Positions 2,061 through 50,500 of a stretch of 64,000 nt of DNA are shown here, piece after piece; positions within the stretch are counted from its first letter, which is position 1, and each line of letters starts with the position of its first letter. The stretch is from Malacoraja senta (taxonomy: Eukaryota), in assembly GCA_038087875.1 (NCBI GenBank), contig CM075988.1, positions 25,174,001 to 25,238,000 of the forward strand, in the 5' to 3' direction. The notes beneath the pieces were generated by a model, which was not told the origin of the DNA, did no database searches, and was given only the letters and a program-made list of their open reading frames with translations. Made by a program: the position numbers and the translations under genes.

Positions 2061-3010
2061 ATAGTTGAGCTTAATAGGATAGACTTAGAACAGGTGCGGA
2101 CATTTATCCATGAGACATTGTGGACCATCAGCAACAGAAGAAACGTATACCTGAACGTACAACCTTACCAGCAGCACACACTTCACTCCTGCAGCGACCC
2201 TGGATCAACCCTGCTGCCATGCAAGGTTACAGAGCCCACTTGTTTGGTAACCCATCAACAAAATGCACTGTAGATATTCTGACCATACCTTCCCAATTCA
2301 CAACTTTGACCACCCCAGGATCAAGGGCAGCGATGTATTCCTCTTACCACCCTGACTTGCAAATAGCATGTGTAGGGAGGAACTGCAGATGCTGGTTCAT
2401 CCCGAAGATAGACACACAGCGGGGTCAGGCAGCTTCTCTGGAGACAAGGAGCAGGTGACGTTTTGGGTCGGAACCCTTCTTCAGATTCTTCATATGATGC
2501 TCAGTCTAAATCCTAAACCCCCCCTCCTCCCAATACCTCTGTGAGAACATCTTCACCTGAAGGTCTACACTGCTCACCAGTGGTCCATGAAAATGGCCCC
2601 TGACCATTAACCTAAGACCAATAGGACTGGGCAATAAATGCGGACCCCAAAACTAAAGGTACCGGAAATCCAATCTTCCCTTTCAATACAGAGCCTTCAC
2701 CCGCTGAATAGTGAGCAGGAATTCTCTAACACAAGGCCACTGTCACCAGTGATCCAAAGAGGATTTGTGTTCATATATCACCTTCAATATAATATAAACC
2801 ACCCTGGACACTTCAGCGGGTCATTTAACATGTACTGAGTCTACCAGCAGGCATCTGACTGTTGAATTCTCCTAGCTACAAAGCAGCAGGTCAAACCAAC
2901 AATTAGTTATAGAAGGTTTTACGCAGTCCACTCAGCCTAACTAGACTTCTCTTCTTTTTCCACAGATCGCCGACCATCAGTAGCTTAAGAAAGGCATCTA
3001 ATTCTCTCAT

Positions 3011-3149
3011 TAAGCTCACTGAAGGAGGGCCTCGACCTGAAACGTCACCCATTCCTTCTCTCCAGAGATGCTGCCTGACCCGCTGAGTTACTCCGGTATT
3101 TTGTGTCTATCTTCAGTGTAAACCAGCATCTGCAGTTCCTTCCCATACA
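3011..3149 (+). mobile_element. Penelope-like terminal fragment (others near 2370-2485, 3530-3706, 6575-7032, 20400-20597, 21975-22090, 23940-24055, 33013-33080, 53228-54388, 62335-62395)
   Basis: cagagatgctgcctgacccgctgagttactcc...ccagcatctgcagttccttcc; TSD taatt(c/g)tctcat at 2999-3010 and 3150-3161. Confidence 0.75.
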
Positions 3150-4032
3150 TAATTGTCTCATACCTATTTACACAAATGCACTTTATTGACCTTTCCTGAG
3201 AGCACTTTGATCAGAGGCAACCCACACAGACCAAAAGGTTTTCACTTGCTTTCTTAAAATAGACATAATGGCCTAACTAAGTAAAGACCTTGATGTTGAG
3301 GTGAGGGTCATGTCTCGTACTCAACACTCCAATATCATGACGCCAACTTGCTATTTTATTCTGTTGTTCAATGGATTCCTGCAGCTAATATTAAAATGGA
3401 CTTAAAATAATAGTTCTGGCATTTGGATTATGGGGGGTTTAATACCATTATAAATACATTTCAAAGCTTCTCAAATAATATATATGACAAGGCAGCTCCA
3501 TGAGTAACCCAATAGTCAAAGGTGCAACGTAGACACAAAATGCTGGAGTATCTCAGCGTGTGAGGCAGCATCTATGGAGATCTTTGGTCTCGACCCCAAA
3601 CGTCGCCCATTCCTTCTCTCCATAGATGCTGCCTCACCCGCTGAGTTACTCCAGCATTTTGTGTCCACCTTCCATTTTATCCAGCATCTGCAGTTCTTTC
3701 TTACACAGATAAAGGAGAAAAACTGTACCCACAGAGACAAGGATCGCTTTGGTTTCTATTGAGCAGTTACCACTTGTAGTCAGACAGCAAGAACACTTTA
3801 ATTATTGGGATGAATATAATTTGGCACTGTTTAATTTCTGCAGCAATGTGAATTTACCTGTAAGTTTGTGTTATGCGGGCTGCTGCACCAAGGAGCAAAG
3901 GCTTGAGCCTGTGCTTCAGGGGAGCAAAGGGTGGGAAGGCAAGGAGAAAGTTAAAGTGAAGATTTAAAAATGCTGTCATATTAGAAAATGAACTGGTGGC
4001 AATGCAGAAGTTGCAGCAAAGGCAAGGAGTTT

Positions 4033-4232
4033 NNNNNNNNNNNNNNNNNNNNNNNNNNNNNNNNNNNNNNNNNNNNNNNNNNNNNNNNNNNNNNNNNNNN
4101 NNNNNNNNNNNNNNNNNNNNNNNNNNNNNNNNNNNNNNNNNNNNNNNNNNNNNNNNNNNNNNNNNNNNNNNNNNNNNNNNNNNNNNNNNNNNNNNNNNNN
4201 NNNNNNNNNNNNNNNNNNNNNNNNNNNNNNNN
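4033..4232. other. Assembly gap (200 N)
   Basis: Run of N. Confidence 1.
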
Positions 4233-6055: not shown

Positions 6056-6640
6056 CAGATTGGAAGTATAAGGTCTGTTCCTAAATACAACTGTCACACA
6101 TCCGCTCACACAATCTTGCTTCTACGTACATGACTCACTTGTGCCTGGAAGCCACTGTGCACACTGCAGAGATGTTCATTGGCAGGCAGTGCATGTTTGA
6201 CATTGCTGCAGCAATTAAACACATATGTGCGCTTCAGAAACTACAGGCCACTTGCATGGAGAGCAGGTTTATTACAGTATTCGTGCTTGAGAACAAGTGG
6301 AAGGTTCCCTCCTTTCCAAACTACTGACTGGCAACATGTGTGATGCACCATGTCTTTGATGATTAAAGAAGGCCCTTCTGGATCACTAATCCAGAAAGAT
6401 AGGTTCTCGATTAGCACTGGTGTCAAAGGTTGTGGGGAGGAGAATGGGATTGAGAGGGAAAAATAGAATGTTGGAGCAGACTCAATCGGCCAAACAACTT
6501 GTGTCGCATGACCTTATATCTTGCATCTCCACCAAGATGTCCATCTAAAGTGAATTCCTCTGTTGATAAAGCTGGGATAGACACAAAATGCTGGAGGAAC
6601 TCAGTGGGACAGGCAGCAAATCTGTAGAGGAGGAATGGAT

Positions 6641-6668
6641 GATGTTTCAGGTCAAGACCCTTCTTCAG
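6641..6668 (-). ncRNA. Minimal hammerhead motif (AUC variant)
   Basis: Minus strand CTGAAGA-A-GGGTCTTGACCT-GAAAC-ATC. Confidence 0.5.
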
Positions 6669-7611
6669 TCTGAACCTGGGTTTCTGGAGCTGTAAGGCAG
6701 CAACTCTACCGCTGCGCCACCATGCCGCCCACATGCTGATCTCAGCTGGCATTTAAGCTTCAACTCTATGGAATCCTCACCCACTTCAAGGATTTCATGG
6801 TCTCATGTCCAGTTTGATATTTGGGTGGTTCCATTATCTCATTCACTCAAACATTTGTGGGATTAAAATTTCAAAGAAGTTTAGCGTTCCACACTGGCTA
6901 TCAAAGGTTGACTGAGTTGTATTGAATCCACCCATTCCTTCTCTCCCAGAGATGCTGCCTGTCCCGCTGAGTTCCTCCAGCATTTTGTGTCTTATCTTCA
7001 GTGTAAACCAACATCTGCAGTTCCTTCCCACATGATAAATCTGGAGTGTGGTCATAAGAAAGAACTCTAATTTGCATTTATTTCTGGTACAACTCATGAG
7101 TGCGTATAGTCCCAGTCCATTCATTCCCATCATCAATGCCTGCAATACTTGGCTGGATCCAACAGTGTTGGAAGCCCTCTGTAATATCTCAGCCATTTCA
7201 TCTCTGAACCAAACATCCCACCTTTGTAATGTTCCACTCTCTGGCAGACTAATAATTCGTTTAAAAGCTCACATGACAATATCATTGCCATAATTTTACT
7301 TTTAATTTCCCTCTTTGAAAAGTGGACTAAACATGCGGAATGCCCAAGATCATTAAGTGTTAATTAATATCACCGGCCTTCAAACCAGTTAATTACCATG
7401 TTCTTGCACTGTTGATTCATCATCAACACCTTGAGAAATTAAGTAACTGTTTAAAATTTTAAATACATAGCAGTGTTGGAATCGTGACTTGGCTCCACAT
7501 AAACACATGCTTTAGAAGTTTCATTTAAAAAAAAGCTCTTATAATAAACTCCTGAGCCAATCTCCCCAAAACTTCCTGTCTAATACACAGTCAAGGTACT
7601 CAAAGAGTTAA

Positions 7612-8767: not shown

Positions 8768-9352
8768 CAAGGTAGATACAAATGCTGGAGAAACTCAGCG
8801 GGTGAGGCAGCATCGATGGAGCAAATGAATAGGTGATGTTTCGGGTCGAGACCCTTCCGAAGGAAGGGTCTCAACCCGAAACGTCACCTATTCCTTCGGG
8901 AAGGGTCTCAACCCGAAACGTCACCTATTCCTTCGGGAAGGGTCTCGACCCGAAACGTCACCTATTCCTTCGGGAAGGGTCTCAACCCGAAACGTCACCT
9001 ATTCCTTCGGGAAGGGTCTCGACCCGAAACGTCACCTATTCCTTCGGGAAGGGTCTCAACCCGAAACGTCACCTATTCCTTCGGGAAGGGTCTCAACCCG
9101 AAACGTCACCTATTCCTTCGGGAAGAGTCTCAACCCGAAACATCACCTATTCCTTCGGGAAGGGTCTCAACCCGAAACGTCACCTATTCCTTCGGGAAGG
9201 GTCTCGACCCGAAACGTCACCTATTCCTTCGGGAAGGGTCTCGACCCAAAACGTCACCTATTCCTTCGCTCCATAGATGCTGCCTCACCCGCTGAGTTTC
9301 TCCAGCATTTGTATCTACCTTCGATTTTTCCAGCATCTGCAGTTCCTTCTTA
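8768..9352. mobile_element. Palindromic Penelope-like terminal element with internal tandem array
   Basis: Inverted arms; 16-bp TSD aaccccaggc(a/t)agatc at 8752-8767 and 9353-9368. Confidence 0.85.
8866..9268 (+). repeat. Tandem array, 11 x 37 bp (last copy partial)
   Basis: Unit gggtctc(a/g)acccgaaacgtcacctattccttcgggaa starts every 37 nt from 8866 to 9236. Confidence 0.95.
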
Positions 9353-9499
9353 AACCCCAGGCTAGATCTAGATTGTTTTTAGTCATGTATTATCTTTCTG
9401 CTGACTGGATAGAATACAACAAAAAAGGTTTTGACTGTACCCCGGTTCAATAGCGACAGCATCCAAAGATGCCAAGGCAAGGTTTCTGGGGAATGATAG

Positions 9500-17636: not shown

Positions 17637-17868
17637 AAATATTGTACATGAATCTTTGAAGGCAGCAGACATATTTATCAAGCACTTAATAAGACAAATG
17701 GAATCCATGGCTCTCTAGAGGCAAGAGTGCAAACACTGGGAAGTTTAACAACAAAGTTAAGAATCGTGTATAATTCCGGGCAATAATGTGTTGATTGAGA
17801 GTAAAGAAAGACTGTTTCTGGTGATTGGAGGATCAATAACCAGTGAACACGCACATAAGGTCCAAGAT

Positions 17869-18068
17869 TAATGTTTAAGAAGGAACTGCAGATGCTGGAA
17901 AAATCGAAAGTAGACAAGAAATGCTGGAGAAATTCAGCGGGTGAGACAGCATCTATGGAGAAAAGGTGTAGGTGACGTTTCGGGTCTGAAGAAGGGTCTC
18001 GACCCGAAACGTCACCTTTTCTCCATAGATGCTGCCTCACCCGCTGAGTTTCTCCAGCATTTTTTGTC
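17869..18068. mobile_element. Palindromic Penelope-like terminal element
   Basis: Inverted arms around the hammerhead motif; perfect 12-bp TSD aaggtccaagat at 17857-17868 and 18069-18080. Confidence 0.85.
17986..18013 (+). ncRNA. Minimal type I hammerhead ribozyme motif (PLE-associated), core intact
   Basis: CTGAAGA-A-GGGT(CTCG)ACCC-GAAAC-GTC; flanks gggt/acct could form helix I. Confidence 0.7.
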
Positions 18069-20030: not shown

Positions 20031-20351
20031 TGGCGACCACCTACGTCAACCGGCGACAGGTACCGGCAACTGAATTGTCTTCAGTTGTCGCCGACAGGGT
20101 CGTTGCTTGTCGTAGCTTGCCGCGGGTGGACGTAGGTTGACTTTGGTTGTTGCCTGTGTGGTGTGGTCGTAGGTGGACGTCCTAATGGGTCGCAGGTAGA
20201 TTGCCCTAGCTTGACGTCGACCAGGTGGTAGGTGGTCGTAGACATTGTCGTGTAGGGGGGAGGGGAGGGGAGGGGAGGGGTCAAGTTGCCGATTTTTCGG
20301 CGAGCTGCTACGACTGTCACCGAAAAAATCACCTAAGTGGGACAGGCCCTT
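20031..20351. mobile_element. One-ended DNA transposon fragment related to family B
   Basis: Right end taagtgggacaggccctt is the exact reverse complement of the family B terminus; CpG-rich interior with gtcgtag repeats. Confidence 0.7.
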
Positions 20352-20468
20352 GAGTCTCAAGAGGAAACACAATCTGCAAAAACATCCTCTGCCTATTTCC
20401 CTCCCCAGATGCTGCCTGGCCTGCTGAGTTACTCTCACAGTTTGTGCTTTTGCCAACATAAAGTGAGA

Positions 20469-20496
20469 CTGAAGAAAGGTCTCAACCCGAAACGTC
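20469..20496 (+). ncRNA. Minimal hammerhead motif with weakened helix II
   Basis: CTGAAGA-A-AGGTCTCAACCC-GAAAC-GTC. Confidence 0.5.
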
Positions 20497-22212
20497 ACCC
20501 ACTCCTTCCCTCCACAGATGCTGCCTGTCCCGCTGAGTTACTCCAGCATTTTATATCTATCTTCGGTATAAACCAACAACTGCAGTTCCTTCCTACATGT
20601 TATGTGATAGACTGGCTACAGAGGTGTCAAAATGATTTGTCAATGAACATTTAAGAGTATTTTTATGCATCATTTGGATCAATGGCTTCTACTATCACAC
20701 AAAAGCATCTGGGTTGGACTCGTCAAAGTTCAAACATCAGACATTCTGGAAGTGGTAAATAATGGGATCATTGACCTATGGAACAAAACCTTTAACAACC
20801 TGGCAGTGAGGGATCACGGAGGGCGGGGGAGGGGGGGGGGGGGAGAGTGGTCAGGATGCTCGAGGAGAGCGAGACAAAGGGCAGTCTGGTCCCAATTAAT
20901 CCCAGACAAAAGAAGCACTCATAATCATCCAGGTTCTCGATTACCCTCCATTATTTCATTAGATCACGGCTGGGTTTTAATTCGTGCTACCTGCCTGTTT
21001 CTACAGTCTTTTATACTCACAGAGCATCTCTCAGTCTCGGTTTTGTGACATATTTTCATTAGCTTGTGACAAGTTTTCACTTACATTGCTTCAGATAGTC
21101 TCAGCCTTATCTAAACGTTGCAATTTCTAAGCAATCTTCTCCAGAATGGATTTCCTCCGTGACATCTACCCTAAGCGTCAGAAGCACCTTAGTAAAGAAT
21201 GTAAACTCAATCAAATCATATCCTCATAACTTAACTCTTAATCCCAGCAATATTTCCATGTCCTAAAATCAAGTTACAGAGAAGAAATTGCCAACAATCT
21301 TTTAAATTGGCATGACAAAAAATTGTTTAAACTACTCAAAATGGGACAAATTGTCCCTAGTGTGCAGGATAGAACTAGTGTACAGTGGACTTAAGAGCCT
21401 GCTTCAACACTGTATCTCTATACTAAAGGTAAGCTATACAGATCCTTACAAAGAGAAACAATATTTCGGCTCAAAACTATGCTTACCAATCGCAATAAAA
21501 AAACGCAAAAACGCAGAATTGGCAAGTGGAATATTAATCAAACAGTTTGTCTTCTGTGGTGACGAGTTTCTTAAATGTTGCCACATCTGTGTAATGTCAG
21601 ACGTCATAGCAGCAAACCATAATCTGTTTCAAAATGGTTCAATATAAATAGATATTATCTTGATCTTCGAAATGGGGCGTTAGTGGGGAGAGAGCAAGGA
21701 ATGTCCATCAAAGGCTGCAAGTCACTAGGAGAAATATTGTGTTTCCAACTTTGTGGATTTACTTGGCAGACGAGGGTGAATCAGGATATTATTCCGCAGT
21801 GTTACAAAACAACTGGGCCGCTGAGTTTACTCATTTCACTGACCTACGCTCTCGTTCCAGCAAAACACATTAAAACATTTACAACAAATCCACCCACATA
21901 AAATGTTCATTATATTTCATAACAAGGTATTTACATTCTGAAGTGAAAAAGAAACAAAGACAAGGAAATGTGGTACCAAGGAACCACAGATGGTGGTTTA
22001 CAAACAGACACTAAGTGCCAGAGTAACTCAGCGGGCCAGGCAGCATTTGTGAAGAAGGTGACATCTCGTGTCGGGATCCTTCTTCAGACATAATCAGATA
22101 AGGGAACGTTATGTCTTGCATGATAAAAAAAATATTTTTTATCAGTTAGATTGGGGTAGTTGTGCTCGAGTTGCTCTCTACAACTTCATTAAGAAGATAT
22201 CCATCAACATCA

Positions 22213-23032: not shown

Positions 23033-25924
23033 GCAGTCAGGCAGTCATAACCCGACTGTCGTACCAATCTAGAATCTCTCTATCTCTGCCTTAAATATTG
23101 TCCAATATAATCAGCCAATATTGTATCTTCTTAGAATACATGAGCCATTACATATCTTGGTGACTGCACAGGCCTTAAGAAGAAATTTCAGCACGATACG
23201 TAATACTCATTATTAGTGGTGGGGCAACCACTGGAGCCTGCTCCAGCATTCAACAACATCTGCGGCTGATCTCTTATAACCTTTATCCTCTGTCATCTTT
23301 CACTCCCTTGGCTTATCAAGAATCTCTATTACTTAGCCTTAAAAATATTTAAGGACTACTCCCACTGTCCTTTGAGGGAAAAAAAAGATTTCAAACGCTC
23401 ATGACCATCAGAGAAAAGAAAACTATATTTCATCTGTCTTGTCGTGGCAACTTAGCCTTGTCTTTAAACAGCGACGCTAGTTTGAGATTCTAACAGAACA
23501 TATCAAAGGCACAGAGATCTGCAAACACAACATTTAATTGTTAGCTTGACAAATTAACTAATCAATTCTACAATAATTTATCAATAACCCGAGTAAAATT
23601 AACTTACCTTTTAATTCTGATGTCCCCGATTTCAAACATCTTAATAATTCCCTAGCACCTCTTAACAGCCTGGGATACATTTAGTTTGGACCCAGTGTTT
23701 TGAACCGTTTGGGTCAGAACCCTTCTTTAGACCGATTGCGTAGTAGGGGAGGAGAAAGCTGGAAGAAAGGTCAGGGCAGGACAGAGCCTGGGGACAGTGA
23801 AAGGCCAGAGATGAAAAGACAAAAGGTGTGAAATAAGATAATGGGTGGAAAGGGCTGGGGGGAGATAGGGAAAGGTAGAAATTGCCCTGCCTCCACCTCT
23901 CTTCCAACTTCCCCCATCCTCCCCTCCACTACAATCATTCTCAAGAAGGGACTTGATCCAAAATGTCGCTTACCCATGTTCTCCAGAGATGCTGCCTAAC
24001 CTACTGAGCCACTTTGTGTCTTCTTTTGTACATCTGCATCTGGAGTTTCGTGTGCCTAGAATCCCTTGATAGTCCCTTTATGTTTGAATTATTCTTCATA
24101 AATTTGCAAAGAAATGAATAAACCAGGTGTGTTTTGTTTAGAGACATGAGTAAGAACGTGACATCCAATTTTGGTTATTTCATGAAATTGCAAAATTTAG
24201 GGTTCTCTTCCAACTTTAAGTTTTAGATTGAATATTTGGATTTAGGAGAAGCATACATTTGGAAAACAAATTAATCAGCAGAATTGTAATTATCTTTGTG
24301 CAGTTTTCCACAAAAAAAAAATGTTTTGCTATTTCAGATCATGGACCATACTCTGAGACTCAAAGATCCCAAACTATCTGCACTGAAAATTCATCTTGTG
24401 ATTAGGAACAAGGACCTATTTTGTAACCAAACATTACTCATTTGATCACCAACCTCTCTAGAAGCTGCATTCCAACAGAAAAATCAGATGCCCTTGACCC
24501 GGTGAGGTCCTCTAGCAGTTTGCTTTTTTGATGAAAGCTACGTGGGTAGGTTCAGTTGGCTAGTTTGTCACATGAAACGCTTTTTGTTGCGTGCTAACCA
24601 GTCAGCAGAAAGACAATACATGATTACAATCAATCCATTTAGTGTATGGATACATGATAAGAGAATAAAGTTGAATGCAAGGTAAAGCCAACAAAGTCCG
24701 GGCAAGGATAGTCCAAGGGACATTAAAGAGGTAGACAGTAGTTCAGCAGTGTGTGTGGGAGGAAAGCCCAGGGCATGCGAGTTACCTCAAATTGGGAAAA
24801 CTCAACATTCGTACGATTGGGTTGCAAGACAATCTGCCTACCATCAGTAGTCTGATTGGCTGACACCTGTCCAAAACTTCAATCATCTTCAAACCTGCAA
24901 ATCAATCTTGGAGAAGTTGCTGGCTATTGAGTTTGGGCAGTGTTAAGGTCTACAAAGCTGTTTGGCGTTGAACTGGTCACAAGATTTTTTAAGCAAATGT
25001 TGATTAACTTGCAGTTTGAAGACAAGAAGCAAAATTCTTCAGATAATTTAGAAAGTTGGCATGAGTGTATTTTGTAGAACCCTTACCAAACACAGTCTCC
25101 CAGGCTAGCTTCTCACACCAACTTTGTCAATGTCATCAAAACAATCAAAATAGTAACATGATATTTTCTAGTCTTTGTTTGGTTCTTTACATTGCCTTCC
25201 ATCCAGGTGTCAAAGCTGAATACCCTGGTTCCTTTGAGCAGCCTATCTATAAACAAGGTCAAACACACAGGCACGTTTGGCCGGCCCCAACCCACCCCCG
25301 CCCTTTCTAAAGAATGAATCCACTTCTATAACCAGCTGTGGATATGTGGGGTGAAATGGCAGATGCAGCTCCAAGTCAGTGGCTATTTACAAGGCAGAGA
25401 TGGACTAATTCTTGATTAGAACAGGTGTCAAAGTTATGGGGAGAAGGCAGGAAAATTGGATTAGTAGGCAGAGATCAGCCATGATTGAATGGCGGAGTAG
25501 ACTCGATGGGCCGAATGGCCTAATTCTACTACTATAACTTGTGAACTTAATCTGAATAGGTGTGAGGTGATGCCCTTTGGGAGGTCAAATGTAAGGGGAA
25601 AGGGGCAAGATCCTTCACATCATTGATGTAGAGAGGGATCTTGGGGTCCAAGTCCATAGCTCCATGAAAGTGGCAACGCAAGTAGATAGAGTGGTAAAGA
25701 AGGTGTATGGTATGCTTGCTTTCATCGGTCAGGCAATTGAGAATACGATTCAGGAAGTCATGTTGCAGTTTTATAGAACTTTGGTTAGGCTGCATTTGGA
25801 ATAATGTGGCCCTTTCGGTTGCCTCGGAAGGATGTGGAGGTTTTGGAGGGTGCGGAGGAGGTATACCAGAATGCTGCCTGTATTGGAGGGTATGATCTAT
25901 AAGGAGAGGTTGGACAAACAAGCA

Positions 25925-26640
25925 CAGGGCTCCCCACTTCTCACCTCACCGGCCTCCGCATCCAACACGTCATCCTCCAACATTACTGTCACCTCCAACG
26001 TGATCCCACCACTAATCACATCTTCCCATGTCTACTCCTTTCCACTGAGACTGCTCCCTCCGCAAATCCTTGGTTCACTCATCTCTTCCCACCCAAACTA
26101 CCAGGTTTTGTTTTACCCCAGCAACCGCAGGAGATACACCAGCCTTCTACCTCACGTAAATTGGAGGAACAGCACGCCGTATTTCACGTGGGTAGCTCAC
26201 AACCCAGCCTGTAATCCCTCCTGGGATCACATTATCCCATGCCAACAATTGGTCTATCAGGGAACCACCCTGTCTGATGTCATCTTTTGCCAGCCCTAAT
26301 TTGTCCTGATCTTTTCATGCTTATAGTCCCCTCCAACCCCCCATAATCAGCTTGAAGGGTCCCGATTCAAAATGTGACCTTCTGCGACAGAACTCTAGGA
26401 TGATCTGATGTGATGCTGACAGCTGCTGTGTGATTTGTATATCCTGTTTGTACGTATACTTTGTCTTGTTAATAAATGTTGAGTGAAAACCCCCCAAAAA
26501 AACAAAATGTGGCCTATCCATTTTCTCCAGAGATGCTGCCTGACCCGCTGAGTTACTCCAGCACTCTGTGAAACGTCACCTATCCATGTTCTCCACAGAT
26601 GCTGCCTGACCCGCTGAGTTACTCCAGCATTTTGTATTCT
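25925..26640 (+). mobile_element. Degraded Penelope-like fragments
   Basis: LRIQHVILQH..HLQRDPTTNHIFP and LEEQHAVFHVGSSQP remnants; two tandem copies of the terminal repeat at 26513-26640. Confidence 0.65.
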
Positions 26641-29949: not shown

Positions 29950-30279
29950 AGGGCCTGTCCCACTTACGCAATTTTTTCGGCGACTTGCCGGCACCCGTCA
30001 TAGTCGCAGCAGGTTGGCGAAAATTCTCAACATGTTGAAAATCCAGCAGCGACCAGAAAAAGGTACGACTCTTTGGGCGACGACTCACGACCATACAGGC
30101 GTCACCCCTCGACATATCGACACGTGACGCCTGTATGGTCATGAGTAGTCGCCCAAAGAGTCGTACCTTTTTCTGGTCGCCGCTGGATTTTCAACATGTT
30201 GAACATTTTCGGAGACCTGCTGCGACTATGACGGGTGCCGGCAAGTCGCCGAAAAAAATCGTGTAAGTGGACAGGCCAT
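29950..30279. mobile_element. Fold-back MITE family B (whole element is a palindrome)
   Basis: agggcctgtcccactta...taagtggacaggccat; arms of ~155 bp pair up to a centre at ~30114. Confidence 0.9.
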
Positions 30280-32503
30280 TTATGCATTGTTCTTCACAGT
30301 ACAGTCTCTAATATTATGAATGTGCAGTAATTAAGTTGCACCCGTGCTCTGCTCAAAAACATGACCTACCAACTTTAACAAGATTCCATAACAAAACTTT
30401 TAAAATTGTTTTCTCATTGTTAAATGGGAATTAAAAAGTATACATTAATCATTCATTAGGTTGAACAGAATATAATTTACAGTCCAGGGTTCCAAGTATG
30501 TTGACGCAGTGCTGGCATGAAGTGTATGGTTCATTATTATATGAGATGAATTATTTCTTTTATAAAAACAGCAGATGCTGAAAATCCAGAGGTGACATAG
30601 GAAACATTGAAAATATGCAGCAAATTGGCCAGAACCAAAACCAGAAAAGGCAGGGAATTTTCAGCTGTGAAATGAAATAAACTTTCTTGATAAAATATCA
30701 ACCACAGTTACTGAGCAACATTGCAGAAGTACATTTGCAGCAGTTCCACTCATCCTATCTATGTGTCAATTAAACAATTCTGGTTTACAAGAGATCTGGT
30801 ATGAAATTATTTCAATGATGCACACATTTACAAAAATTCAGCCGAGTTTCAAAAGCAAAATGAACGCTAACTTTTTGAAAATGTGAAGGCAGTATAATGG
30901 GAAGACAGGTCTACTTCAGTATAAGCTGCAAGGTAAATGGAGTATTCCAATGCACCCGCTCAATTGCATGCAGGGTACCAGGTTGCCAATGTACCTTCCC
31001 TGTAATTGACAAAGGGCACCAAGGTTCTTTTTGCAAAGAAATCCCTTTCCCCTTCCACTTATTAGTGAGCAACAAAACTCTTTTGGCCAACCTCATCAAG
31101 TTTATGTATGAGGCAAGAGATTGGCAGCTATGTAGTTCTGTAAATGAAGAAACTGAAAAAAACACAGAGATTTAAAAGGAAAAGAAAATCAGTTTCTACA
31201 TTTTAGTACGCCCAGCTGAGTTCTATTCCCCTCCTCCCCCCACCCACCTAAAAAAGACAATGGATTTGGGAATATTAAATATTTCTGTTTAAAGACTAAA
31301 TTATGGGATAAGACCATTTTATACTATTCTAAATGAAGGCAACTTGGGCTTGTGCATACTAAAACTACACAAGATAAATATAGGCTGATCTGGGGGTGGG
31401 GGGGGGGGGGAATAGAGGACCACAACCCTGCTTTGAGAAACAAAATAAACCGCGGTGACCGAGGTGAATGTTCGTTTGCTCAGTAACTTTCTAGTAACTG
31501 GCAAAATAAATTCTTCCTGAAAAAAGCAGCGAGTTGTGATCTGGAATTCATTATTCAAAGGGAAATGGAAGCAGATTCAATAAAAACTTTCAAAATGGAA
31601 TTGGATTAATACTTGAATGTGGAAACGTGCAGAGCAGGGATCAAAGACTGTGCAAATGAAATGAACTGTACAAGTCTTTTCAAAAGCTGCTACAGTCTTC
31701 AGCCAAATAACTTCCTGCTGTTTCGTATTGTTGTAAGGTTCAATGAAGGTGATTGTGAAATTGTATCATGCAGGAATATGCAAGGAGCATACTGAAATAA
31801 CTAATTTAATATGGGCATAACACAAATTGAGATTGTAGAGGAAATGAAGTATATTGCATCGGCCTGTTTCATGATTACGCTGTTAATAAAAAGTATATTA
31901 TTTTTGATTTTTTTTTTTAAATGGACATTTTAAAAAAGCGACACAAGGAAGTAGTGAAAGTATTAATTGCACTAATTTCACCATAAACAGAATTTTTTTT
32001 GTTGCAAAATTATGAGATATACGAAATTGCCACACTTCAATACATGATTTAACAAACTAATTTGATGTGGTATCATGATAAGTTGTCTTATAATCTTTTG
32101 ATTAACTGTTTTATCGTAATTATTATTTAGCCATGACTATAGAAAATAGTATTGAAATGTGATTTAACTTTCTACTCATAAATTAGTCTAATTTACAGAC
32201 CATCAGAAAGAGGGGTTGCAACCATTAACATCCACCAAGCAAATAACCTGAAAAGTAAGAGTTGCCTGCAGACAAAGAACACAAGCAGAGCTGTGCAAAA
32301 GCCTACAGTCAGGGACTAGGGCTGCACCACACACCGTGCCATCTTATCCAAGTATCACAGCGCATTACAATAAAGTCTAATTTTTGGTCCATATAAAAAT
32401 AATGTAATGCAACTCAGAAAAGTGCATTTTTTTGAAAGATTTTTCTCCCTGCTGCCAAGACTTCCGAGAAGAATTCTTTAACCTCTTGTTTGCAGCAAGG
32501 TCT

Positions 32504-38500: not shown

Positions 38501-41500
38501 TTCTTTCATTCACTTCCTGCATTACTACTCTCCCCCCCCCCCCCCACCTTCCAATCGCCTGGTCGCCACCCATGTCATCTCAAAAAGGTTCTCTACAAAA
38601 ATTTCTCAGCTATTGCAAAACAGATGATTCATGAATATCTACAGTGTTCGCATGTCACATTGAATCCTAATAATAATCACCAGTCATCATCAAGGGAGGA
38701 GTATTAGATCACTCAATTAGCCATTACACACTCTCTCCATTCATTCAGTGCTTAAGCATCAATGAAAGCAGGGAGAAACAATCGTGCAGAACACTAGCTA
38801 TTTTGGAAACTCATTAAATCTTCTGAAATAAAAAGTATCCAACGTACCTCATGGGAGCTGTAAACCAGAAACACTTCCTCACAAAAGCTTTTATTTACTC
38901 ATCCAGCCTATTACTGTTTATAAAAGAGTAATTAAGTGTACCAAATTCTACTCAATCATCGTAAAGAAGAAATGCCCTCTAGGGAATGATTATTTTGCAA
39001 CACGGATGCAAGAACCTGACTCATCCTATACGTAACTCGCTGAAACATGCAAAGCTGTTATCACTGGGCGGAAGATGGGAGCAAAATTTATGGCAAAGAG
39101 TCAGACAGATCACAGAACCATTTAATATGATGAGTGTCATTTATTTAAAGAGTGAAATCTGTCAAAATGTAATGCATGTACATACAAATGAGTGTCATAC
39201 CAAATGAGTGAGATTTTATGAGTTCTAGTGTATTGGTTACTGTTATTGTGGTGGAACATACAAGCTTCATTTGCTGATGAAAATAGCAGCCATATAAAAC
39301 GCAAAACAAATTATCACAGAACTAAATCACTTATGGAAGAAATCCCAATTACAGCATTAAGCTTAGGCTGCTGCATTGTCATCCTTTCAAGTCTCATTTC
39401 ACTGCTCTCCAATAGAAAAATAACAAAACCAAGAGTCAAAGACTGATTAGGAAGCATGAATAGTGTCTTGAGATGCCTATTAGATAGAATCAGTTTCCAA
39501 CCTCCTTAAGGACACCTTGATCAAGATGCTGAGCTTTGTTCAGCGCAGGCATCTGCACTGTCAATATGTTTAGTCCTTGTTAGTTTAGAGACAGTGTAGA
39601 AACAGACCCTTTGGCCCACCGAGCCCGTGCCGACCGGAGATCCCCGCACATTAACACAAGCCTACACACACTAGGAGCAATTTACACTTATACCAAGTAG
39701 ACAAACTTGGACCCTGAGTATTCACTTGGATCCTTAAAGAAAGGCTGCAGATGCTGGGGATACCCAACAAGTATAGCACTGTACAAGGAGACAAAGTTTA
39801 ACTCTGTTGCTCCTTCCACAGTTACTGCCTAACTGCCAAAGTAACATGTTCTTATATTTCAGATATCCAGCATCTGCAGATATTTGCTTGTTAATAACTT
39901 GGTAATTTAGTCTTCCGCTAAACTTATTTCTCTCCTCAAATCTTTAACCACTTCTTGCACTATTTCTGGTACGATCCTTCTCTTCAAGAACCATCGCATT
40001 ACACGCAGCTCCAATTTCTGTCCTTTTAACATATTACATCCATTAAGGTTCAAATTATCTCATACACCTTAGAAACATAGAAAATAGGTGCAGGAGTACG
40101 CCATTCGGCCCTTCTAGCCTGCACCGCCATTCAATATGATCATGGCTGATCATCCAACTCAGTATCCTGTACCTGCCTTCTCTCCATACCCCCTGATCCC
40201 TTTAGCCACAAGGGCCACATCTAACTCCCTCTTAAATATAGCCAATGAACTGGCCTCAACTACCTTCTGTGGCAGAGAATTCAATCATATTCACCACTCT
40301 CTGTGTAAAAAATGATTTTCTCATCTCGGTCCTAAAAGACATCCCCCATATCCTTAAACTTGTTCTGGACTTCCCCAACATCAGGAATAATCTTCCTGCA
40401 TCTAGCCTGTCCAATCCCTTAAGAATTTTGTAAGTTTCTATAAGATCCCCCCTCAATCTTCTAAATTCTAGCGAGTACAAGCCGAGTCTATCCAGTCTTT
40501 CTTCATATGAAAGTCCTGCCATCCCAGGAATCAGTCTGGTGAACCTTCTCTGTACTCCCTCTATGGCAAGAATGTCTTTCCTCAGATTAGAAGACCAAAA
40601 CTGTATGCAGTACTCCAGGTGTGGTCTCACCAAGACCCTGTACAACTGCAGTAGAACCGCCCTGCTCTTATACACAAATCCTTTTGCTATGAATGCTAAC
40701 GTACCATTCCCTTTCTTCACTGCCTGCTGCACCTGCATGCCTACTTTCAATGACTGGTGTACCATGACACCCAGGTCTCGTTGCATCTCCCCTTTTCCTA
40801 ATCGGCCACCATTCAGATAATAGTCTACTTTCCTGTTTTTGCCACCAAAGTGGATAACCTTCACATTTATCCACATTATACTGCATCTGCCATGCATTTG
40901 CCCACTCACCCAACCTATCCAATTCACCTTACAGCCTCCTAGCATCCTCCTCACAGCTAACACTGCCCCCCAGCTTCATGTCATCCGCAAACTTGGAGAT
41001 GTTGCATTCAATTCCCTCATCCAGATCATTAATATATATTGTAAATAGCTGGGGTCCCAGCACTGAGCCTTGCGGTACCCCACTAGTCACTGCCTGCCAT
41101 TCTGAAAAGGACCCGTTTACTCCTACTCTTTACTTCCTGTCTGCCAGCCAGTTCTCTATCCACATCAATACTGAACCCCCAATACCGTGTGCTTTAAGTT
41201 TGCATACTAATCTCTTATGTGGCACCTTGTCGAAAGCCTTCTGAAAGTCCAGATATAACATATCCACTGGTTCTCCCTTATCCACTCTACTAGTTACATC
41301 CTCAAAAAATTCTATAAGATTCGTCAGACATGATTTACCTTTCATAAATCCATGCTGACTTTGTCCAATGAATTCACCACTTTCCAAATGTGCTGCTATC
41401 CCATCTTTAATAACTGACTCTAGCAGTTTCCCCACTACCGATGTTAGACTAACTGGTCTGTAATTCCCCGTTTTCTCTCTCCCTCCCTTTTTAAAAAGTG

Positions 41501-44500: not shown

Positions 44501-47500
44501 AATTCACTGGATGAATAAAAGAGTTAGATAGAGCTCTAGGGGCTAGCAGAATCAAGGGATATGGGGAGAAGGCAGGCACGGGTTACTGATTGTGGATGAT
44601 CAGCCATGATCACAATGAATGGCGGTACAGGCTCGAAGGGCCAAATGGCCTCCCCTGCACCCATTTTCTATGTTTCTTTGTTTATGATTGCAGAAACACC
44701 ATGGTAGCGGGTTCTGTGTAAGAAGGAACTGCAGATGCTGATTTGAACCGAAGATAGACACAAAAAGCTCATATTTAGCTTGGGCAGCTTACAGCCCAGT
44801 GGTATGAATATTGAATTCTCTCACTTCAGGTAGCCCCGGCATTTCCTCTCGCTCTATCCCTCCCCCACCCAAGTCGCACTAGCTTCTCATTTTCACCCTA
44901 CAAACAGCTTACAATGGCCTGTTTCCTTTATCATCTTTACTTTTTTGCATATCTTTCATACATTGTTCTTTCTCTCCACATCACGGTCTACATCTCTCGT
45001 TTCCCTTATCTCTAACCAGTCTGAAGAAGGGTCTCGACCCGAAACATCACCCATTCCTTCTCTCCAGAGATGCTGCCTGTCCTGCTGAGTTACTCCAGCT
45101 TTTTGTGTCTATCTTCGGTAGCATGTTCTGAGTGGACTTGACAGCATAGAGGTTTGTAAGGACATTTCCCGCAATAAGGGAGTCTTGAACCAGGGGGCAG
45201 TGTTGCCGGGCAGGGGATGAATGACCTAATACTGAGGAGGAATTTCTTCTCCAAGAGTAATACATCTTAGCGAGTAGTCAATATCAAGTCATTAAGACTG
45301 GGGTAGATATATTTCTGCATTACAAGGATCCCGAGAATAATAGGGATCAGCCAGGAAAATGATAATCTTATTGACTGGAACAGCAGGCTTGACATGCTGT
45401 ATGGCCTCATCTCTTCCTATATCCGATAGCAACTACAGTAAAATCAGATGTTCTCTACAACAGTTTGAATATGTACTTCTCCACAGAGATTACTGCTTTG
45501 CTGCTGAAAAGTTAGTTGCATGTATAAATTATATTTTTGCATGGAACTCTGTTAATCTTTTACTTCTTGTTTCAACACAAAACTAAATAGCAACTAACTA
45601 GTGGGAACATCCAAAGTTCTACATAGACTGTAACAGTGTTATCAGAATAACAATTCACAGCTGCAAAGTCTTTTAACTTTTAACATTCCTCATTCAACCA
45701 ATAGCTTCATAGAGACAGCATAATGGTGCGGCAGTGATCTCTGCTGATACACAGCTCAAGGGACCAGGGTCCGACCCTGACCACGGGTGTCGTCTGTCTA
45801 GAATGTACTCGTTCTCCCCTTGACTGTGGGTTTCTGCCAGGTGCTCTCCAGTTTCCTCCCACATCTGCTCGCTTGGCTTGGCTCCTAAAGCCTCATCGCT
45901 GAAACAGAAGCTCATGCGATGAGCAATTCTTTGGAACGAATCTCGAATAATTATGCATTGAAGACCATATAGCTCCATGCAAGCACAGAACCCCAATGTC
46001 CTCCACAACATTCCTCCTTCAGGCAACAGAATCAGAGATATTTTCGGCTACATCATGCTGATGTTTATTTTGCTGGCGGTTCCAATCAATGTTCAACTGT
46101 TGAAAATGTAGTCCTAGACTTTCCCATGCACAAGTCTAGGGCTTGCTGTTTGATTGAGAAGCCCCTGTCTTGTTAGGATTCCCTGGCATTCTAACACGAC
46201 TGAGAACTTACTTCTCTCCTCCTGTACCAGGTACTGGTTCTCGGTAGGTAGAGTGAACCTAGGCAATCTGGCTCATCAACTGCTAGTTTTTCCGTTGTAT
46301 CTCAGTACATGTGACAATAATAAACTAATACCATTACCAACAGTACAAGATGTTCCCTTGCCCAAACAAACCCCAGTCTACCCATATAATATTAGACACA
46401 CTATAAACCAATGCTGCGCTGAAACCAGAAAATGACGTTGGCACAAATGACTGTCAATCTTTCTTTAAGCTTGCAACTAAGGTGCCTGAATTTTTTTTTC
46501 TAAGAGTTATTAATTCCATTGCCTGGTTATATATACACACTCTTTTTATAAAAATATGTTTAGATCTTACAATTTGCATTACCTGGGTTTAGAGATACAG
46601 TAGCTTCTTTGCTCATGTTTAACAGTCTAATGATCACGCTGTACTTTCCACCTGGTTCCAGCTGCTTCACGGCGTATTCCACTGTGTTGTTCTTTGTGGC
46701 CACCTTGTAATGTTTTTCACTTTGACGGATAGAATCTTTTACAAGAATTGCATAAGTCTGGGAAACATAAACAACTTTTGATCAGCGACCAGCACACTGC
46801 GCTTCAGTGATTACAGCAGTAAGAAACTATTTGGCTGTAAAATAGAACCCAGAAGAGTCAACTGTACATGTTTAAAGGGACTGTTTGCATGGCCGGTTAT
46901 CCACACGGCATTTATGGGAGCACTGAATGAAGATGGTTCCTGTTCCTGTTCTGGGGCAGAAGTAGCCTGCTGACAGAGGTGATTGTAATCAGAGACAGGA
47001 ACCACTCTTTCCCTTGGGCACCATCAAAAGGCCTCTATTAATAGTATGCCATATTTTATACTAATTATCTACGCTGCTATGTAAAACAGTCCCAAATCAA
47101 AACATACTCAATTATTGACCACATGCCAGTACTTTAGCACTCAAAAACCAAATTTACCAGGGCCAGTACATTTTGTGCATCACCTAATATATTTAAAACT
47201 TTGCAGTCTTTTCTGGAATGCACTTGTTTTGCAATTTCAGCAGAGAACACCTTAAGGAATTTTTATTTCTTTAGGGAATGAGGTATGCACAAATGCTGCT
47301 GAAATATTTCAATAAAACAGAATTTAAAATCACCAACAAACATAGGAATCACTGAATACTGACTGCTTTGGTTCTGCTTCTTGCTCTTGTCCAGAACTCA
47401 AAAATGCATCACCTGTGTTGCCAGTTTCTCTCCTCCTCTCACTTTCCCTCCTCTGATATGTTCCCAACCATTTGACCTCGAGCTCAGTGAAAGGGTTTGA

Positions 47501-50500
47501 GATGAATATCTATTACAAAGTACCTTGGCTGCACCATGCAGCATCCCATCCAGCTCCCTGCAAAGACCCCATTCCATATTCTTTTCTGTAACCCTGACAA
47601 TGACCCATTCCACACTGGAGGATACCAAGACATCATCTTTGGTCCTCTCCATCCAAGATCACAGGCCTGCCATGCTGCCTATTCCACTTTCCAGATGTCT
47701 GCTTTCACTTCTCTCCCTACAAATTCCCTGCACGGGAGGTCAGGATCGGACCCGGGTCTCTGGTGCTGTAAGGCAGCAACTCTACCGTTGCACCATTTCG
47801 GCCCCCATTCTTTGCACAGATTCTGCCTGACTGAAGTATTTCTACCATTTTCTGTTTTAATATGGCCTCGTTATTTTTTTGTCTGTAGGATTTCCAATGT
47901 TCAGAATTTCTCTGGAAAGGCTGTGGTGCATTGATGTATCTCCATACAAGGTGTCGATACTCACTAAAGTTTCATTCAGTAGGTCATATGGAGGTTGCCA
48001 CTTCAGTACAGCAAATGTTTTGTCCTCCTTCACAACGTGTAAATAGCGAGGTGGCAGTCGGTTATCAGGTATCATCTTAACGGCAATATATTCAGAAGGC
48101 GGTCCTAAAAATGGCTTCACAACACGAACCTAGAAAAATGTGAAAAAATATCAATAGTGAACTCAGTTAAAATTATCCATCTCAAACTTTCCATATCACC
48201 TATACTTTTCAGATAAATATTATGCATAAAACTAAATTAGGACAGCTCATTTAAGTGTAAAACAACTCGAATCGTGTCTCTAGCCAGGAATACATGATCC
48301 AAATTAGAAACTGCCTCTATTTTATACACCCCCTTTGAATGGACTGACTTAACTATCAAAAATTCAATTGTACTGCTTCTTGTCGGTGGATTCTTGATCA
48401 TTGGTAAAGGTTTCTATATAGCTAACATCTTAAACAACCACGAGGAACAGCACCGCATATTTTGCTTGGGCAGCTTACAATCCAGCAGTGTGAATATTGA
48501 TTTCTCCAACTTCATGTAACCCTTACTTTCCCTCTCTCTCCGTCCCTTCCCCACCCCAGTTCTACGACTAGTTTCACTGTCCTTCGGATTGATTTTACCA
48601 ATTGGATGTCTCCTTGTCACCTTCCCCTCAGCTAACAATCCACCATTCTACATTTTCTTTTCATCCTCTGCTTTGATCTGTAATTTTCACACCTCACCCA
48701 TCCATATTTCTAGTCTCCCTCTCCCCGGCTCTCAGTCTGAAGGGTCTCGACCGGAAACGTCACCCATTTCTTCTCTCCAGAGATGCTGCCTGTCCCGCTG
48801 AGTTAGTCCAGCATTTTGCGTCTATCTTTATGAGAATCACGGGATGTGCAATTAGGGGAGCCTAATACACAGCTGAATTGATTTGCTTAACTTTTATTTT
48901 TAACTAACCACTGCATGTATAGTTTAGTTTATAGATACAGCGTTGAAACAGGCCCTTCGGCCCACTGAGTCCTGCTGACCAGCGATCCTCGTACACTGCC
49001 GCTAACCTACACACACTAGGGACAATTTACAATTATACCAAGCCAATTAACCTACACACCTGTACGTCTTTGGAGTGTGGGAGGAAACTGGAAATCCCAG
49101 AGAAAATAGACAACATCCGCAGTCAGGATCGAACTCGGGTCTCTGGCGCTGTGTGGCAGCAACTTTACATCTGCGCCACCATGTTGCCCATGTTGTTACT
49201 TTCCAAAAGTGTTTGGGATTTTTTTTTTTTAAAACAACTCCTAAAGAACCCACACTCCACTCAGCACAATGTTAGTTGTGATATCCAGGGAGGACACCTG
49301 TAAATCACCAAATATCAGCATCCGACATTGGAGGACCAATTTCTCAAGGTCTTCCCAACAGCATCTCTTAGCATTCACATTAGGCTAATCACTCTCTAAT
49401 GTCTGGGAATCTAGAAGGAATCAATCCAATTTAAAAGATAGCAAGATTAAATCTAATCTAGAATTTTAAAAGAACAAATCTATTTTCTCAAATTTCTATG
49501 CAAACATTTTAACAATGTGAACTTCATCAGGCAATACACCGTATCAAGTACAATGAATGAAATAGGTACCAAAAATAGATACTGCTCATCACTGTTCACC
49601 AGCACTGTAACATTGCTCTTGGTTGAATTAACATTTTTTGGATTTCGATACAGTTCCAAAAACGATGTAGCAAAGAAAATACCATAAACCTGTGAAGAAA
49701 AGAAGATTGTTATTCCCAAGTTATCTCTGGAAATTTTGAGCATACCAAACCTATTAAATTTAATAGAGGAATTCGGTTCTTTTTCTGGATATAGAATAAA
49801 TTGGAATAAAAGTGAAATCATGATGTTAAAACCTCAAGAATCTACACACCTATTAAAATTCCCCTTTAAAATTGCAACAGAAAAATGTAAGTATTTGGGA
49901 ATTCAAATTACTAGAAAATACAAAGCATTATTTAATGCTAATTTTATGCCTTTATTAAATAAACTCAACGCGTTGATTAAATTCTGGAAAACACATCCGT
50001 TATCATTAATAGGCAGAATAAACACTATAAAAATGATCTTTTTACCACAAATATTATACCTATTTCAATCTATACCATTATATATACCAAAAAACGTTTT
50101 CAAAAAACTAGACTCTAATATTACCAATTTTATTTGGGACTATAGATCACATAGAATTCAAAGAAAACACTTGTGCAAACCAAAAGACGTTGGGGGACTT
50201 TCACTTCCAAACTTTTTGTATTATTATTGGGCAGTGCATATTAAGAATATAATTTATTGGTTGGACAGTCCTACCCAACAGACAGAATGGATAAGAATGG
50301 AGAAAGAGGATTGTTCTCCTTGTAACATAGGAGCGATCCTCTTCTCCCCGATAAAACTGAACACAATATATAAGAATAACCCAATTATACATAATACAAT
50401 AAGAATTTGGAAACAAATAAAATTATCTTTAAAATTAAGAAACCTATCATTGTTAATGCCAATAGTGAATAATCCTTCATTTAAACCATCTCTTATTGAT

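What the first reader, a model, noticed from the sequence alone, without database searches (positions are those of the whole stretch)
17869..18068. Dispersed Penelope-derived mini-elements carry a minimal hammerhead ribozyme (retrozyme-like family)
Seen: an abundant short repeat contains CTGAAGA-A-GGGT(CTCG)ACCC-GAAAC-GTC, i.e. the hammerhead core boxes CUGANGA and GAAA, a 4-5 bp helix II, a GUC triplet and only a palindromic AC/GU helix III. The core is intact at 17986-18013. Variants occur at 2457-2484(-), 3019-3046, 6641-6668(-), 20469-20496, 45021-45048 and 48737-48761. Four copies have 12-16 bp TSDs and several are inverted dimers. At 44770 and 48440 the motif follows a PLE ORF C-terminal remnant. 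Known: Penelope-like elements carry minimal type I hammerheads that cleave as dimers, and an extra A after A9 occurs in some natural hammerheads. Inference: this is a prolific, ribozyme-bearing non-autonomous PLE derivative family in this elasmobranch genome. In palindromic copies the long hairpin may compete with the ribozyme fold.
Basis: partly seen in the sequence, partly recalled or inferred. Interest (0 to 1): 0.75.

Follow-up and report, generated by a model that had tools for sequence, protein, structure and literature searches.

The report
Penelope leader copies with minimal hammerhead
This abundant 100-130-base repeat is the hammerhead-bearing end of a Penelope-like jumping gene, a known arrangement, and its copies likely are dead by-products copied from an internal start point back to the probably capped front end of uncut RNA, rather than a self-propagating retrozyme family.

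Summary
The motif is real. 17986-18013 has both hammerhead boxes, an extra base after A9, a 4-bp helix II and a palindromic helix III, which is the published minimal hammerhead of Penelope-like elements (PLEs). Only 1 of 10 window copies keeps the full core, native helix I is 2 bp, and there is no covariation. Four TSDs and three PLE ORF remnants are confirmed. 'Retrozyme-like family' is not supported: copies are dispersed, share tail subfamilies with ORF-bearing copies, and show CpG-type decay in the core. The useful result comes from contigs of other organisms that carry the repeat. Thousands of copies begin 1-4 nt before the core, at an initiator-like CAGT, not at the cleavage site. G, the rarest base, is the majority letter just before two of those starts, as a reverse-transcribed cap would give. 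Two fixed 3' ends match PLE 'tail' RT start sites. Best reading: cap-to-RT-start copies of uncleaved PLE RNA whose template jump failed. Cleavage and transcription start are untested. The scan has many PLE-hammerhead notes elsewhere, but none matching this sequence.

The parts
17857..17868 (+). left target-site duplication (12 bp, exact)
17869..17985 (-). inverted arm: long-tail PLE copy, 5'-truncated inside helix II
17986..18013 (+). minimal type I hammerhead core: C3-A9, extra A, helix II 17994-17997/18002-18005, G12-A14, palindromic ACGU, C17; predicted cut after 18013
18014..18068 (+). short tail of the direct arm (likely ends at the nearer RT start site)
   Evidence: inference from PMC11167929
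18069..18080 (+). right target-site duplication
44716..44768 (-). inverted long-tail arm of an ORF-bearing insertion (TSD 44703-44716 / 45117-45130)
44765..45017 (+). PLE ORF C-terminus (stop at 44831-44833) and pyrimidine-rich 3' UTR
45016..45022 (+). initiator-like site (fits YYANWYY, consensus recalled); population 5' ends at 45017-45020; inferred transcription start at A45018/G45019
   Evidence: inference
45021..45116 (+). hammerhead (G16.2>A in this copy) plus short tail
48440..48828 (+). second ORF-end + 3' UTR + hammerhead (3-nt deletion) + short tail copy
25922..26380 (+). third, decayed PLE remnant (RT-EN linker to C-terminus, then decayed core at about 26350)
8768..9355 (.). inverted dimer (short + long tail, 16-bp TSD) enclosing an 11-copy, 37-nt tandem array of helix II-GUC that lacks the CUGA box
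3011..3149 (+). solo hammerhead + long-tail copy with 12-bp TSD
3527..3707 (.). inverted dimer, short + long tail, no first box
20467..20597 (+). solo 131-nt copy starting at the initiator A and preceded by a G, long tail
2368..2485 (-). solo copy, G12>A, long tail with internal deletion
6578..6672 (-). solo copy, short tail
21975..22089 (-). older solo copy with decayed core

Best explanation
These repeats are the hammerhead-bearing pseudo-LTR end of an endonuclease-encoding Penelope-like retrotransposon, and the short copies likely are abortive insertions in which the element's RT starts at one of two internal sites, copies back to the probably capped 5' end of uncut RNA 1-4 nt before the ribozyme core, and is joined to the target without jumping to the RNA's 3' end. 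Shown: core motif, TSDs, ORF remnants upstream in long copies, two fixed 3' ends, 5' ends clustered just before the core, G before two of those starts. Inferred: the cluster is the transcription start (about +1 at A45018) and the G is the copied cap; the 3' ends, about 99 and 131 nt from that start, are RT start sites; inverted dimers arise when both nicked strands are extended, one from each site; successful jumps give the ORF-end + hammerhead + tail copies. The ribozyme would act only in the active element's RNA, as a weak protein-assisted dimer (2-bp helix I). Cutting the downstream copy would leave a 31-nt terminal repeat that could serve as the landing pad for the jump. Genomic short copies are dead and decay.
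For: (1) Architecture matches the published PLE minimal hammerhead: base between 9 and 10.1, G10.1-C11.1, palindromic 15.2-16.2 (PMC4209133). It also matches the Anolis PAc ribozyme, which has the same GAAACGUC and cuts only with protein present (PMC11167929). (2) PLE identity: the C-terminal peptide is shared by three window remnants. The 25927 remnant matches P0005 (E 4e-13 pairwise), whose nearest Atlas clusters include GIY-YIG (21% of members) and HTH_animal. (3) In run X1 the top 5' loose ends are 45017 (1955 contigs, partly other subfamilies' 3' UTR), 45018 (1163), 45019 (1202) and 45020 (808). The last three have random AT-rich flanks (agreement 0.31-0.32). The cleavage site 45049 is not among the 6 rows shown, so it has at most 471. 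45017-45019 are also among the top 6 rows in X2 and X3. Depth rises about 6.8-fold from 45013-15 to 45019-21 but 1.09-fold across the cut site. (4) The majority letter before 45018 and before 45019 is G in 3 of 3 large runs, although G is the rarest base (19%). All 4 listed head-to-tail joints that return to 45018 have G as the last inserted letter, from 3 different donor positions (table 5c). An extra cap G at full-length L1 5' junctions is reported (PMC11702581, passage). (5) 4 of 4 inverted insertions carry one long and one short tail. PAc extends both strands and has two RT start sites that bracket the tail. (6) Long and short copies interleave in the tail tree, with weak support. (7) In the focal subfamily both arms of a dimer share private variants.
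Against: No RNA data: transcription start, cap and cleavage are all untested. The runs laid are other organisms that hold 10-31% of the stretch's words, and Logan contig depth is not copy number; counts saturated and only 6 loose-end rows per run were shown. The reference ends 33 nt after the cut site, so starts there may be under-counted. The G is a majority letter without counts, and could be templated in a short master. In the window only 1 of 6 short copies that start before the core has a clear extra G; 2 are ambiguous. About ten other arms start inside or after the core. The relative sizes of the 45018/45019/45020 groups also resemble what splicing of varied exons into an AG acceptor would give (exon-end frequencies recalled). 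There is no covariation (0 of 8 pairs) and native helix I is only 2 bp. In PAc, RNA-seq showed no ends at the cut site and ribozyme mutants still inserted in vitro, which weakens the landing-pad role. No full-length element was recovered.
Confidence: 0.55

Rival explanations
1. A self-propagating, SINE-like non-autonomous PLE family: short copies are transcribed from their own internal promoter and re-mobilised in trans, with the 5' G fixed in the master.
For: Fixed 5' boundary and about 10-fold higher depth over the hammerhead than over the ORF end. No ORF-bearing copy of the focal tail subfamily lies in the window. Non-autonomous PLE derivatives exist (PMC8557442 passage).
Against: Two other subfamilies have both long and short copies. 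In PAc the template needs about 55-60 nt downstream of the RT start, which copies do not carry. Core positions decay like CpG sites: G12>A 14.7%, C15.2>T 10.6%.
Confidence: 0.2
2. The 5' boundary is a splice acceptor (pyrimidine tract-CAG before the core), and the short copies come from spliced RNA; splicing could also lengthen helix I.
For: The sequence at 45000-45019 looks like an acceptor. The D. virilis Penelope intron ends at helix I (PMC4209133). Group sizes at 45018-45020 fit exon-end frequencies (recalled).
Against: Loose ends show no shared upstream exon (agreement 0.30-0.32) and are AT-rich like genomic flank. The letter before 45018 is G, whereas exon ends favour A there (recalled). 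No skip joint into 45020 is among the rows shown (many rows hidden).
Confidence: 0.12
3. Non-LTR retrozyme: ribozyme-cut monomers circularise and are copied by rolling circle into tandem arrays.
For: Head-to-tail joints of about 98 nt (8-26 contigs per row in X1) and of 39 nt (11 contigs) that keep the whole core do exist; a preprint derives retrozymes from PLE pLTRs.
Against: Such joints are rare against more than 1000 contigs per dispersed 5' end. They return to 45017-45020, not to the cut site, so they are not permuted at GUC. The window's only array lacks the CUGA box.
Confidence: 0.05
4. Ordinary random 5' truncation or structure-induced RT stalling, with no link to the RNA's 5' end.
For: About ten window arms start inside or after the core; 5' truncation is typical of PLEs.
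Against: Ends pile up in a 4-nt interval on the 5' side of the structure, whereas stalling is expected on its 3' side; the G bias is unexplained.
Confidence: 0.08

Closest known systems
Minimal type I hammerheads in PLE pLTRs (Cervera & de la Pena 2014, PMC4209133; abstract through start of methods read)
   Same: Core boxes, base between 9 and 10.1, G10.1-C11.1, palindromic helix III without loop; thousands of dispersed single motifs attributed to truncated PLEs; opposite-strand pairs.
   Different: Helix II is 4 bp (7-8 in Schistosoma) and native helix I is 2 bp (4-5 there; 2 in D. virilis). No cartilaginous fish is named in the parts read; supplementary figures were not seen.
PAc, Poseidon of Anolis carolinensis (Frangieh et al. 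2024, PMC11167929; main text and methods read, supplement 1 as text)
   Same: Same GAAACGUC end and extra base; two RT start sites downstream of the ribozyme bracket the tail; both strands extended; uncleaved RNA is the main template. Cut-to-3'-end distances here are 68 and 101 nt, against about 85-92 nt there.
   Different: PAc has at least 126 nt of UTR before the ORF, and its ORF starts inside the ribozyme. Here copies begin 1-4 nt before the core, and no conserved ORF start was seen in the tail. The family here may be Neptune-like (zinc-finger-like linker seen by eye in P0005; not tested by a tree).
Non-LTR retrozymes (Cervera & de la Pena 2020, PMC7229834, passages; Li et al. 2026 preprint 10.64898/2026.07.22.740005, parts 1-3 read)
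   Same: Short, non-coding, PLE pLTR-related, type I hammerhead.
   Different: Retrozymes are head-to-tail arrays with a ribozyme in each unit and make circular RNA; these copies are dispersed, head-to-head, TSD-flanked and begin upstream of the core.
Minus-strand strong-stop DNA of LTR retroelements, and cap-derived G at full-length L1 5' junctions (first recalled; second PMC11702581, passage read)
   Same: cDNA from an internal start to the RNA's 5' end that must jump to continue; extra G.
   Different: Here priming is from nicked target DNA, so a failed jump is left in the genome as an insertion.

Membership tests
PLE minimal type I hammerhead | CUGANGA and GAAA boxes, UH, in type I order | tested here: met
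   17986-18013; majority letters in run X1 keep the core
PLE minimal type I hammerhead | extra base after A9; G10.1-C11.1; palindromic 15.2-16.2 | tested here: met
   features from PMC4209133
PLE minimal type I hammerhead | helix I of 2-5 bp | tested here: inconclusive
   2 bp natively, 60% of cells paired in 10 copies; 4 bp in the focal copy only through the inversion junction
PLE minimal type I hammerhead | compensatory changes in helices | tested here: not met
   0 of 8 pairs in 10 window copies; low power, since the copies are decayed members of few subfamilies
PLE minimal type I hammerhead | self-cleavage as a dimer or with protein | not testable with these tools
   needs an in vitro assay
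EN+ Penelope-like element | motif lies downstream of a GIY-YIG ORF end, in the pLTR | tested here: met
   three ORF remnants upstream of the motif; the GIY-YIG link is indirect, through P0005 and Atlas clusters; no direct Pfam hit
EN+ Penelope-like element | inverted 5'-truncated copy, 30-40-bp tail at one end, TSD | tested here: met
   4 of 4 inverted insertions have long + short ends about 33 nt apart; TSDs at 3 of these 4 and at one solo copy
EN+ Penelope-like element | telomerase-like RT, clade placement | not tested
   no full-length ORF recovered
Non-LTR retrozyme | head-to-tail units, each with a complete hammerhead | tested here: not met
   no such array in the window; the 37-nt array lacks box 1; rare tandem joints in other organisms
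Non-LTR retrozyme | unit boundaries at the cleavage site | tested here: not met
   5' ends and tandem joints at 45017-45020, not 45049
Non-LTR retrozyme | circular RNA accumulates | not testable with these tools
   no run on record as RNA held the stretch
Independent non-autonomous (SINE-like) family | own lineage, separate from autonomous copies | tested here: inconclusive
   long and short copies interleave in two subfamilies; the focal subfamily has only short copies among 19 arms

The most novel reading that the evidence does not exclude
The genome records the missing step of Penelope transposition. RT starts about 100-130 nt inside the RNA, runs to a cap that sits 2-3 nt before the hammerhead core, and then must jump. 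The two hammerhead copies of one transcript pair through the ACGU palindrome, bringing the RNA's ends together, and cutting the downstream copy makes a 31-nt terminal repeat for strand transfer, like a retroviral R region. The mass of short repeats are integrated strong-stop cDNAs marked by a cap-derived G, and tandem re-use of the same jump seeds retrozyme-like arrays.
Probability: 0.25. Interest if true: 0.72.

Novelty: new member of a known kind. Interest (0 to 1): 0.42.

Why it matters
The ribozyme and the inverted, tailed insertions are known. What could matter is the mechanism. How PLEs build their pseudo-LTRs after starting RT internally, and what their weak hammerhead is for, are open questions (PMC11167929 leaves the later steps unvalidated). 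A very high-copy family with sharply defined 5' and 3' ends makes these questions testable by counting junctions in one assembly and by one CAGE and cyclic-phosphate experiment. It also cautions against counting such dispersed motifs as retrozymes or as active ribozymes: 9 of 10 copies here have a damaged core.

Tried and rejected
No whole genome is held for this window, so no genome-wide census or family consensus was possible. A tail pattern found nothing in viral or metagenome contigs. Rfam gave no hammerhead hit at E<=5; its models do not capture this minimal form here. Pfam found nothing PLE-specific in 2 remnants, in 102 of 164 long stop-free frames, or in 5 hit proteins. Searches for full-length PLE proteins returned none. 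Of the 5 phmmer hits only P0002 and P0005 look related; the other three are repetitive. No RNA holder was listed, which is no evidence on expression; X15 is marked probably DNA. Lack of listed variants at 45021-45028 was not used as evidence of selection, because these positions lie near alignment ends. Monomer folds are not more stable than shuffles (z -0.13 to 1.23). A helix pairing the first box with the short-tail end appears in 2 of the 5 folds but varies between copies, so it is only a lead. The tail consensus fold has no covariation (0 of 16 pairs). A conserved ORF start in the tail was considered and rejected by eye: the ATG frame closes early in one subfamily. Lunse et al. 2017 is not held and is known only from its title and a review passage; it may bear on novelty. 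Paper searches for a cap G, strong-stop or fixed 5' end in PLEs listed nothing that states it, judged from listings and the passages read. Supplements of PMC4209133 and of the preprint were not seen. The scrambled-order Naiad hammerheads in earlier scan notes do not apply: the order here is standard type I.

Full report
Observation. The stretch 17869-18068 is a head-to-head dimer between 12-bp exact direct repeats. Its right arm holds a complete minimal hammerhead core at 17986-18013. BLAST and inspection give 21 loci of this repeat in the window, 25 arms aligned. Ten arms have a recognisable box-1-to-GUC stretch, and only the focal one passes a full descriptor, which 5 of 200 shuffles also pass once. 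The bare two-box pattern is at chance level, and Rfam does not see the motif. The cited variants, the four TSDs and the ORF remnants are all present. The focal copy lies about 14 kb beyond the stop codon of a SORL1-like gene on the minus strand.

What the element is. Three copies are preceded by the same ORF C-terminus and a pyrimidine-rich 3' UTR (44765, 48442, 25927), and a fourth (23940) by 3' UTR-like sequence only (by eye). The peptide recurs at 79% identity at the end of a skate protein record. The longest remnant matches an unnamed protein whose nearest Atlas clusters include GIY-YIG and HTH_animal families; this link is indirect, and no full ORF was found. The insertion anatomy is that described for PLEs: an inverted 5'-truncated copy and a 30-40-bp tail at one end (PMC8557442; PMC3846280). 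All four inverted insertions carry one long and one short tail, about 33 nt apart. The ribozyme has the features listed for PLE minimal hammerheads (PMC4209133) and the same GAAACGUC end as the tested Anolis PAc ribozyme. Native helix I is only 2 bp; the focal copy's 4 bp come from the inversion, whose hairpin takes up the core. No pair shows a compensatory change.

Where copies begin. With no genome held, I laid contigs of four public runs from other organisms that carry the repeat on the ORF-bearing copy. In X1 the top 5' loose ends are at 45017, 45018, 45019 and 45020 (1955, 1163, 1202 and 808 contigs), 1-4 nt before C3. The last three have random AT-rich flanks. The cleavage site (45049) is not among the six rows shown, so it has at most 471, with the caveat that the reference ended 33 nt later. 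X2 and X3 repeat the 45017-45019 peak; X15 lists 45017 only. Summed depth rises about 6.8-fold into the core but 1.09-fold across the cut site; contig depth is not copy number. In the window, 6 of 6 core-bearing copies without upstream PLE sequence begin within 0-4 nt of C3, while about ten other arms begin inside or after the core, one or two of them near the cut site. So most copies that reach this far come from uncleaved RNA, as found for PAc in vitro.

The extra G. The majority letter just before 45018 and 45019 is G in 3 of 3 large runs, while G is the rarest base in the window; before 45020 it is A. All four listed tandem joints returning to 45018 end their inserted letters with G, from three donor positions; of the three returning to 45019, one does. 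In the window one of six copies shows it clearly. The site fits an initiator (consensus recalled; Inr-like sites in PLE pLTRs). A copied cap gives such a G at full-length L1 junctions (PMC11702581). I therefore infer a transcription start 2-3 nt before the core. A splice acceptor at the same AG is the main alternative. The group sizes would fit it, but there is no shared upstream exon and the letter bias goes the other way.

Mechanism. Inferred by analogy with PAc: the RNP nicks AT-rich DNA on both strands and starts RT at one of two sites about 99 and 131 nt from the cap. It then copies to the cap. If the cDNA is joined there, a 100-130-nt copy results; if both strands are extended, an inverted dimer with one long and one short end results; if RT jumps to the RNA's 3' end, it continues into the 3' UTR and ORF, giving the long copies. 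Re-jumping to the same leader gives the rare 39- and 98-nt tandems. The ribozyme would work in the source element's RNA, as a weak dimer needing protein. More speculatively, cutting the downstream copy leaves a 31-nt terminal repeat for the jump; PAc data give no support for that step so far. Short copies lack the sequence downstream of the RT start that PAc needs, share subfamilies with long copies (weak tree), and lose core bases at CpG sites, so they are likely dead.

Comparison and verdict. The element works like PAc and is a PLE pLTR with a minimal hammerhead. It fails the retrozyme tests on tandem organisation and on boundaries at the cut site (definitions). A self-propagating SINE-like family is not excluded (0.2). 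The motif is known in kind. The fixed 5' end with a G was not stated in the papers my searches listed or in the passages I read, but Lunse et al. 2017 and several supplements were unavailable. Earlier scan notes hold many PLE hammerheads, and the eight shown are of other kinds; none matches this sequence. Interest 0.42; new member of a known kind.

Noticed in passing
window 8862-9268: Eleven 37-nt tandem units (97% matches) of helix II-GAAAC-GUC plus 9 nt, without the CUGA box, inside an inverted dimer with a TSD: a minisatellite born within one insertion. The unit junction sits at a short inverted micro-repeat.
   Followed up: partly
window 32430-59630, minus strand: Exons of a SORL1-like gene (fn3_SORL1 hits; last two coding exons near 33577 and 32539). 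The copies at 45021 and 48737 are intronic and antisense to it.
   Followed up: partly
P0001: An NCBI skate 'neuromedin-U receptor 1' model ends in the PLE C-terminal peptide: exonised or mis-annotated PLE remnant.
   Followed up: no
table 7, loose ends at 45061: In another tail subfamily the majority letter at G12 is A in runs X3 and X15 but G in X1 and X2: heavy CpG decay, or masters with a dead ribozyme that still spread.
   Followed up: no
table 3: The CpG in loop II varies less (3.2-3.5%) than the CpGs at C11.1-G12 (11-15%) and C15.2-G16.2 (11-18%); unexplained, may be mapping bias.
   Followed up: no
tail, e.g. window 3047-3149: A CCAGCAT motif occurs twice about 33 nt apart, once before each 3' end, and either copy can pair with the upstream GATGCTG: two alternative stems that might set the two RT start sites. 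No covariation.
   Followed up: partly
window 29950-30280: Near-perfect palindromic element (141-nt arms, 92%), MITE-like; related ends occur at 20340, 33127 and 53273.
   Followed up: no
window 40259-42885, minus strand: LINE-type remnant with endonuclease and RT domains (Pfam Exo_endo_phos_2, RVT_1).
   Followed up: no
window 4033-4232: Assembly gap of 200 N.
   Followed up: no
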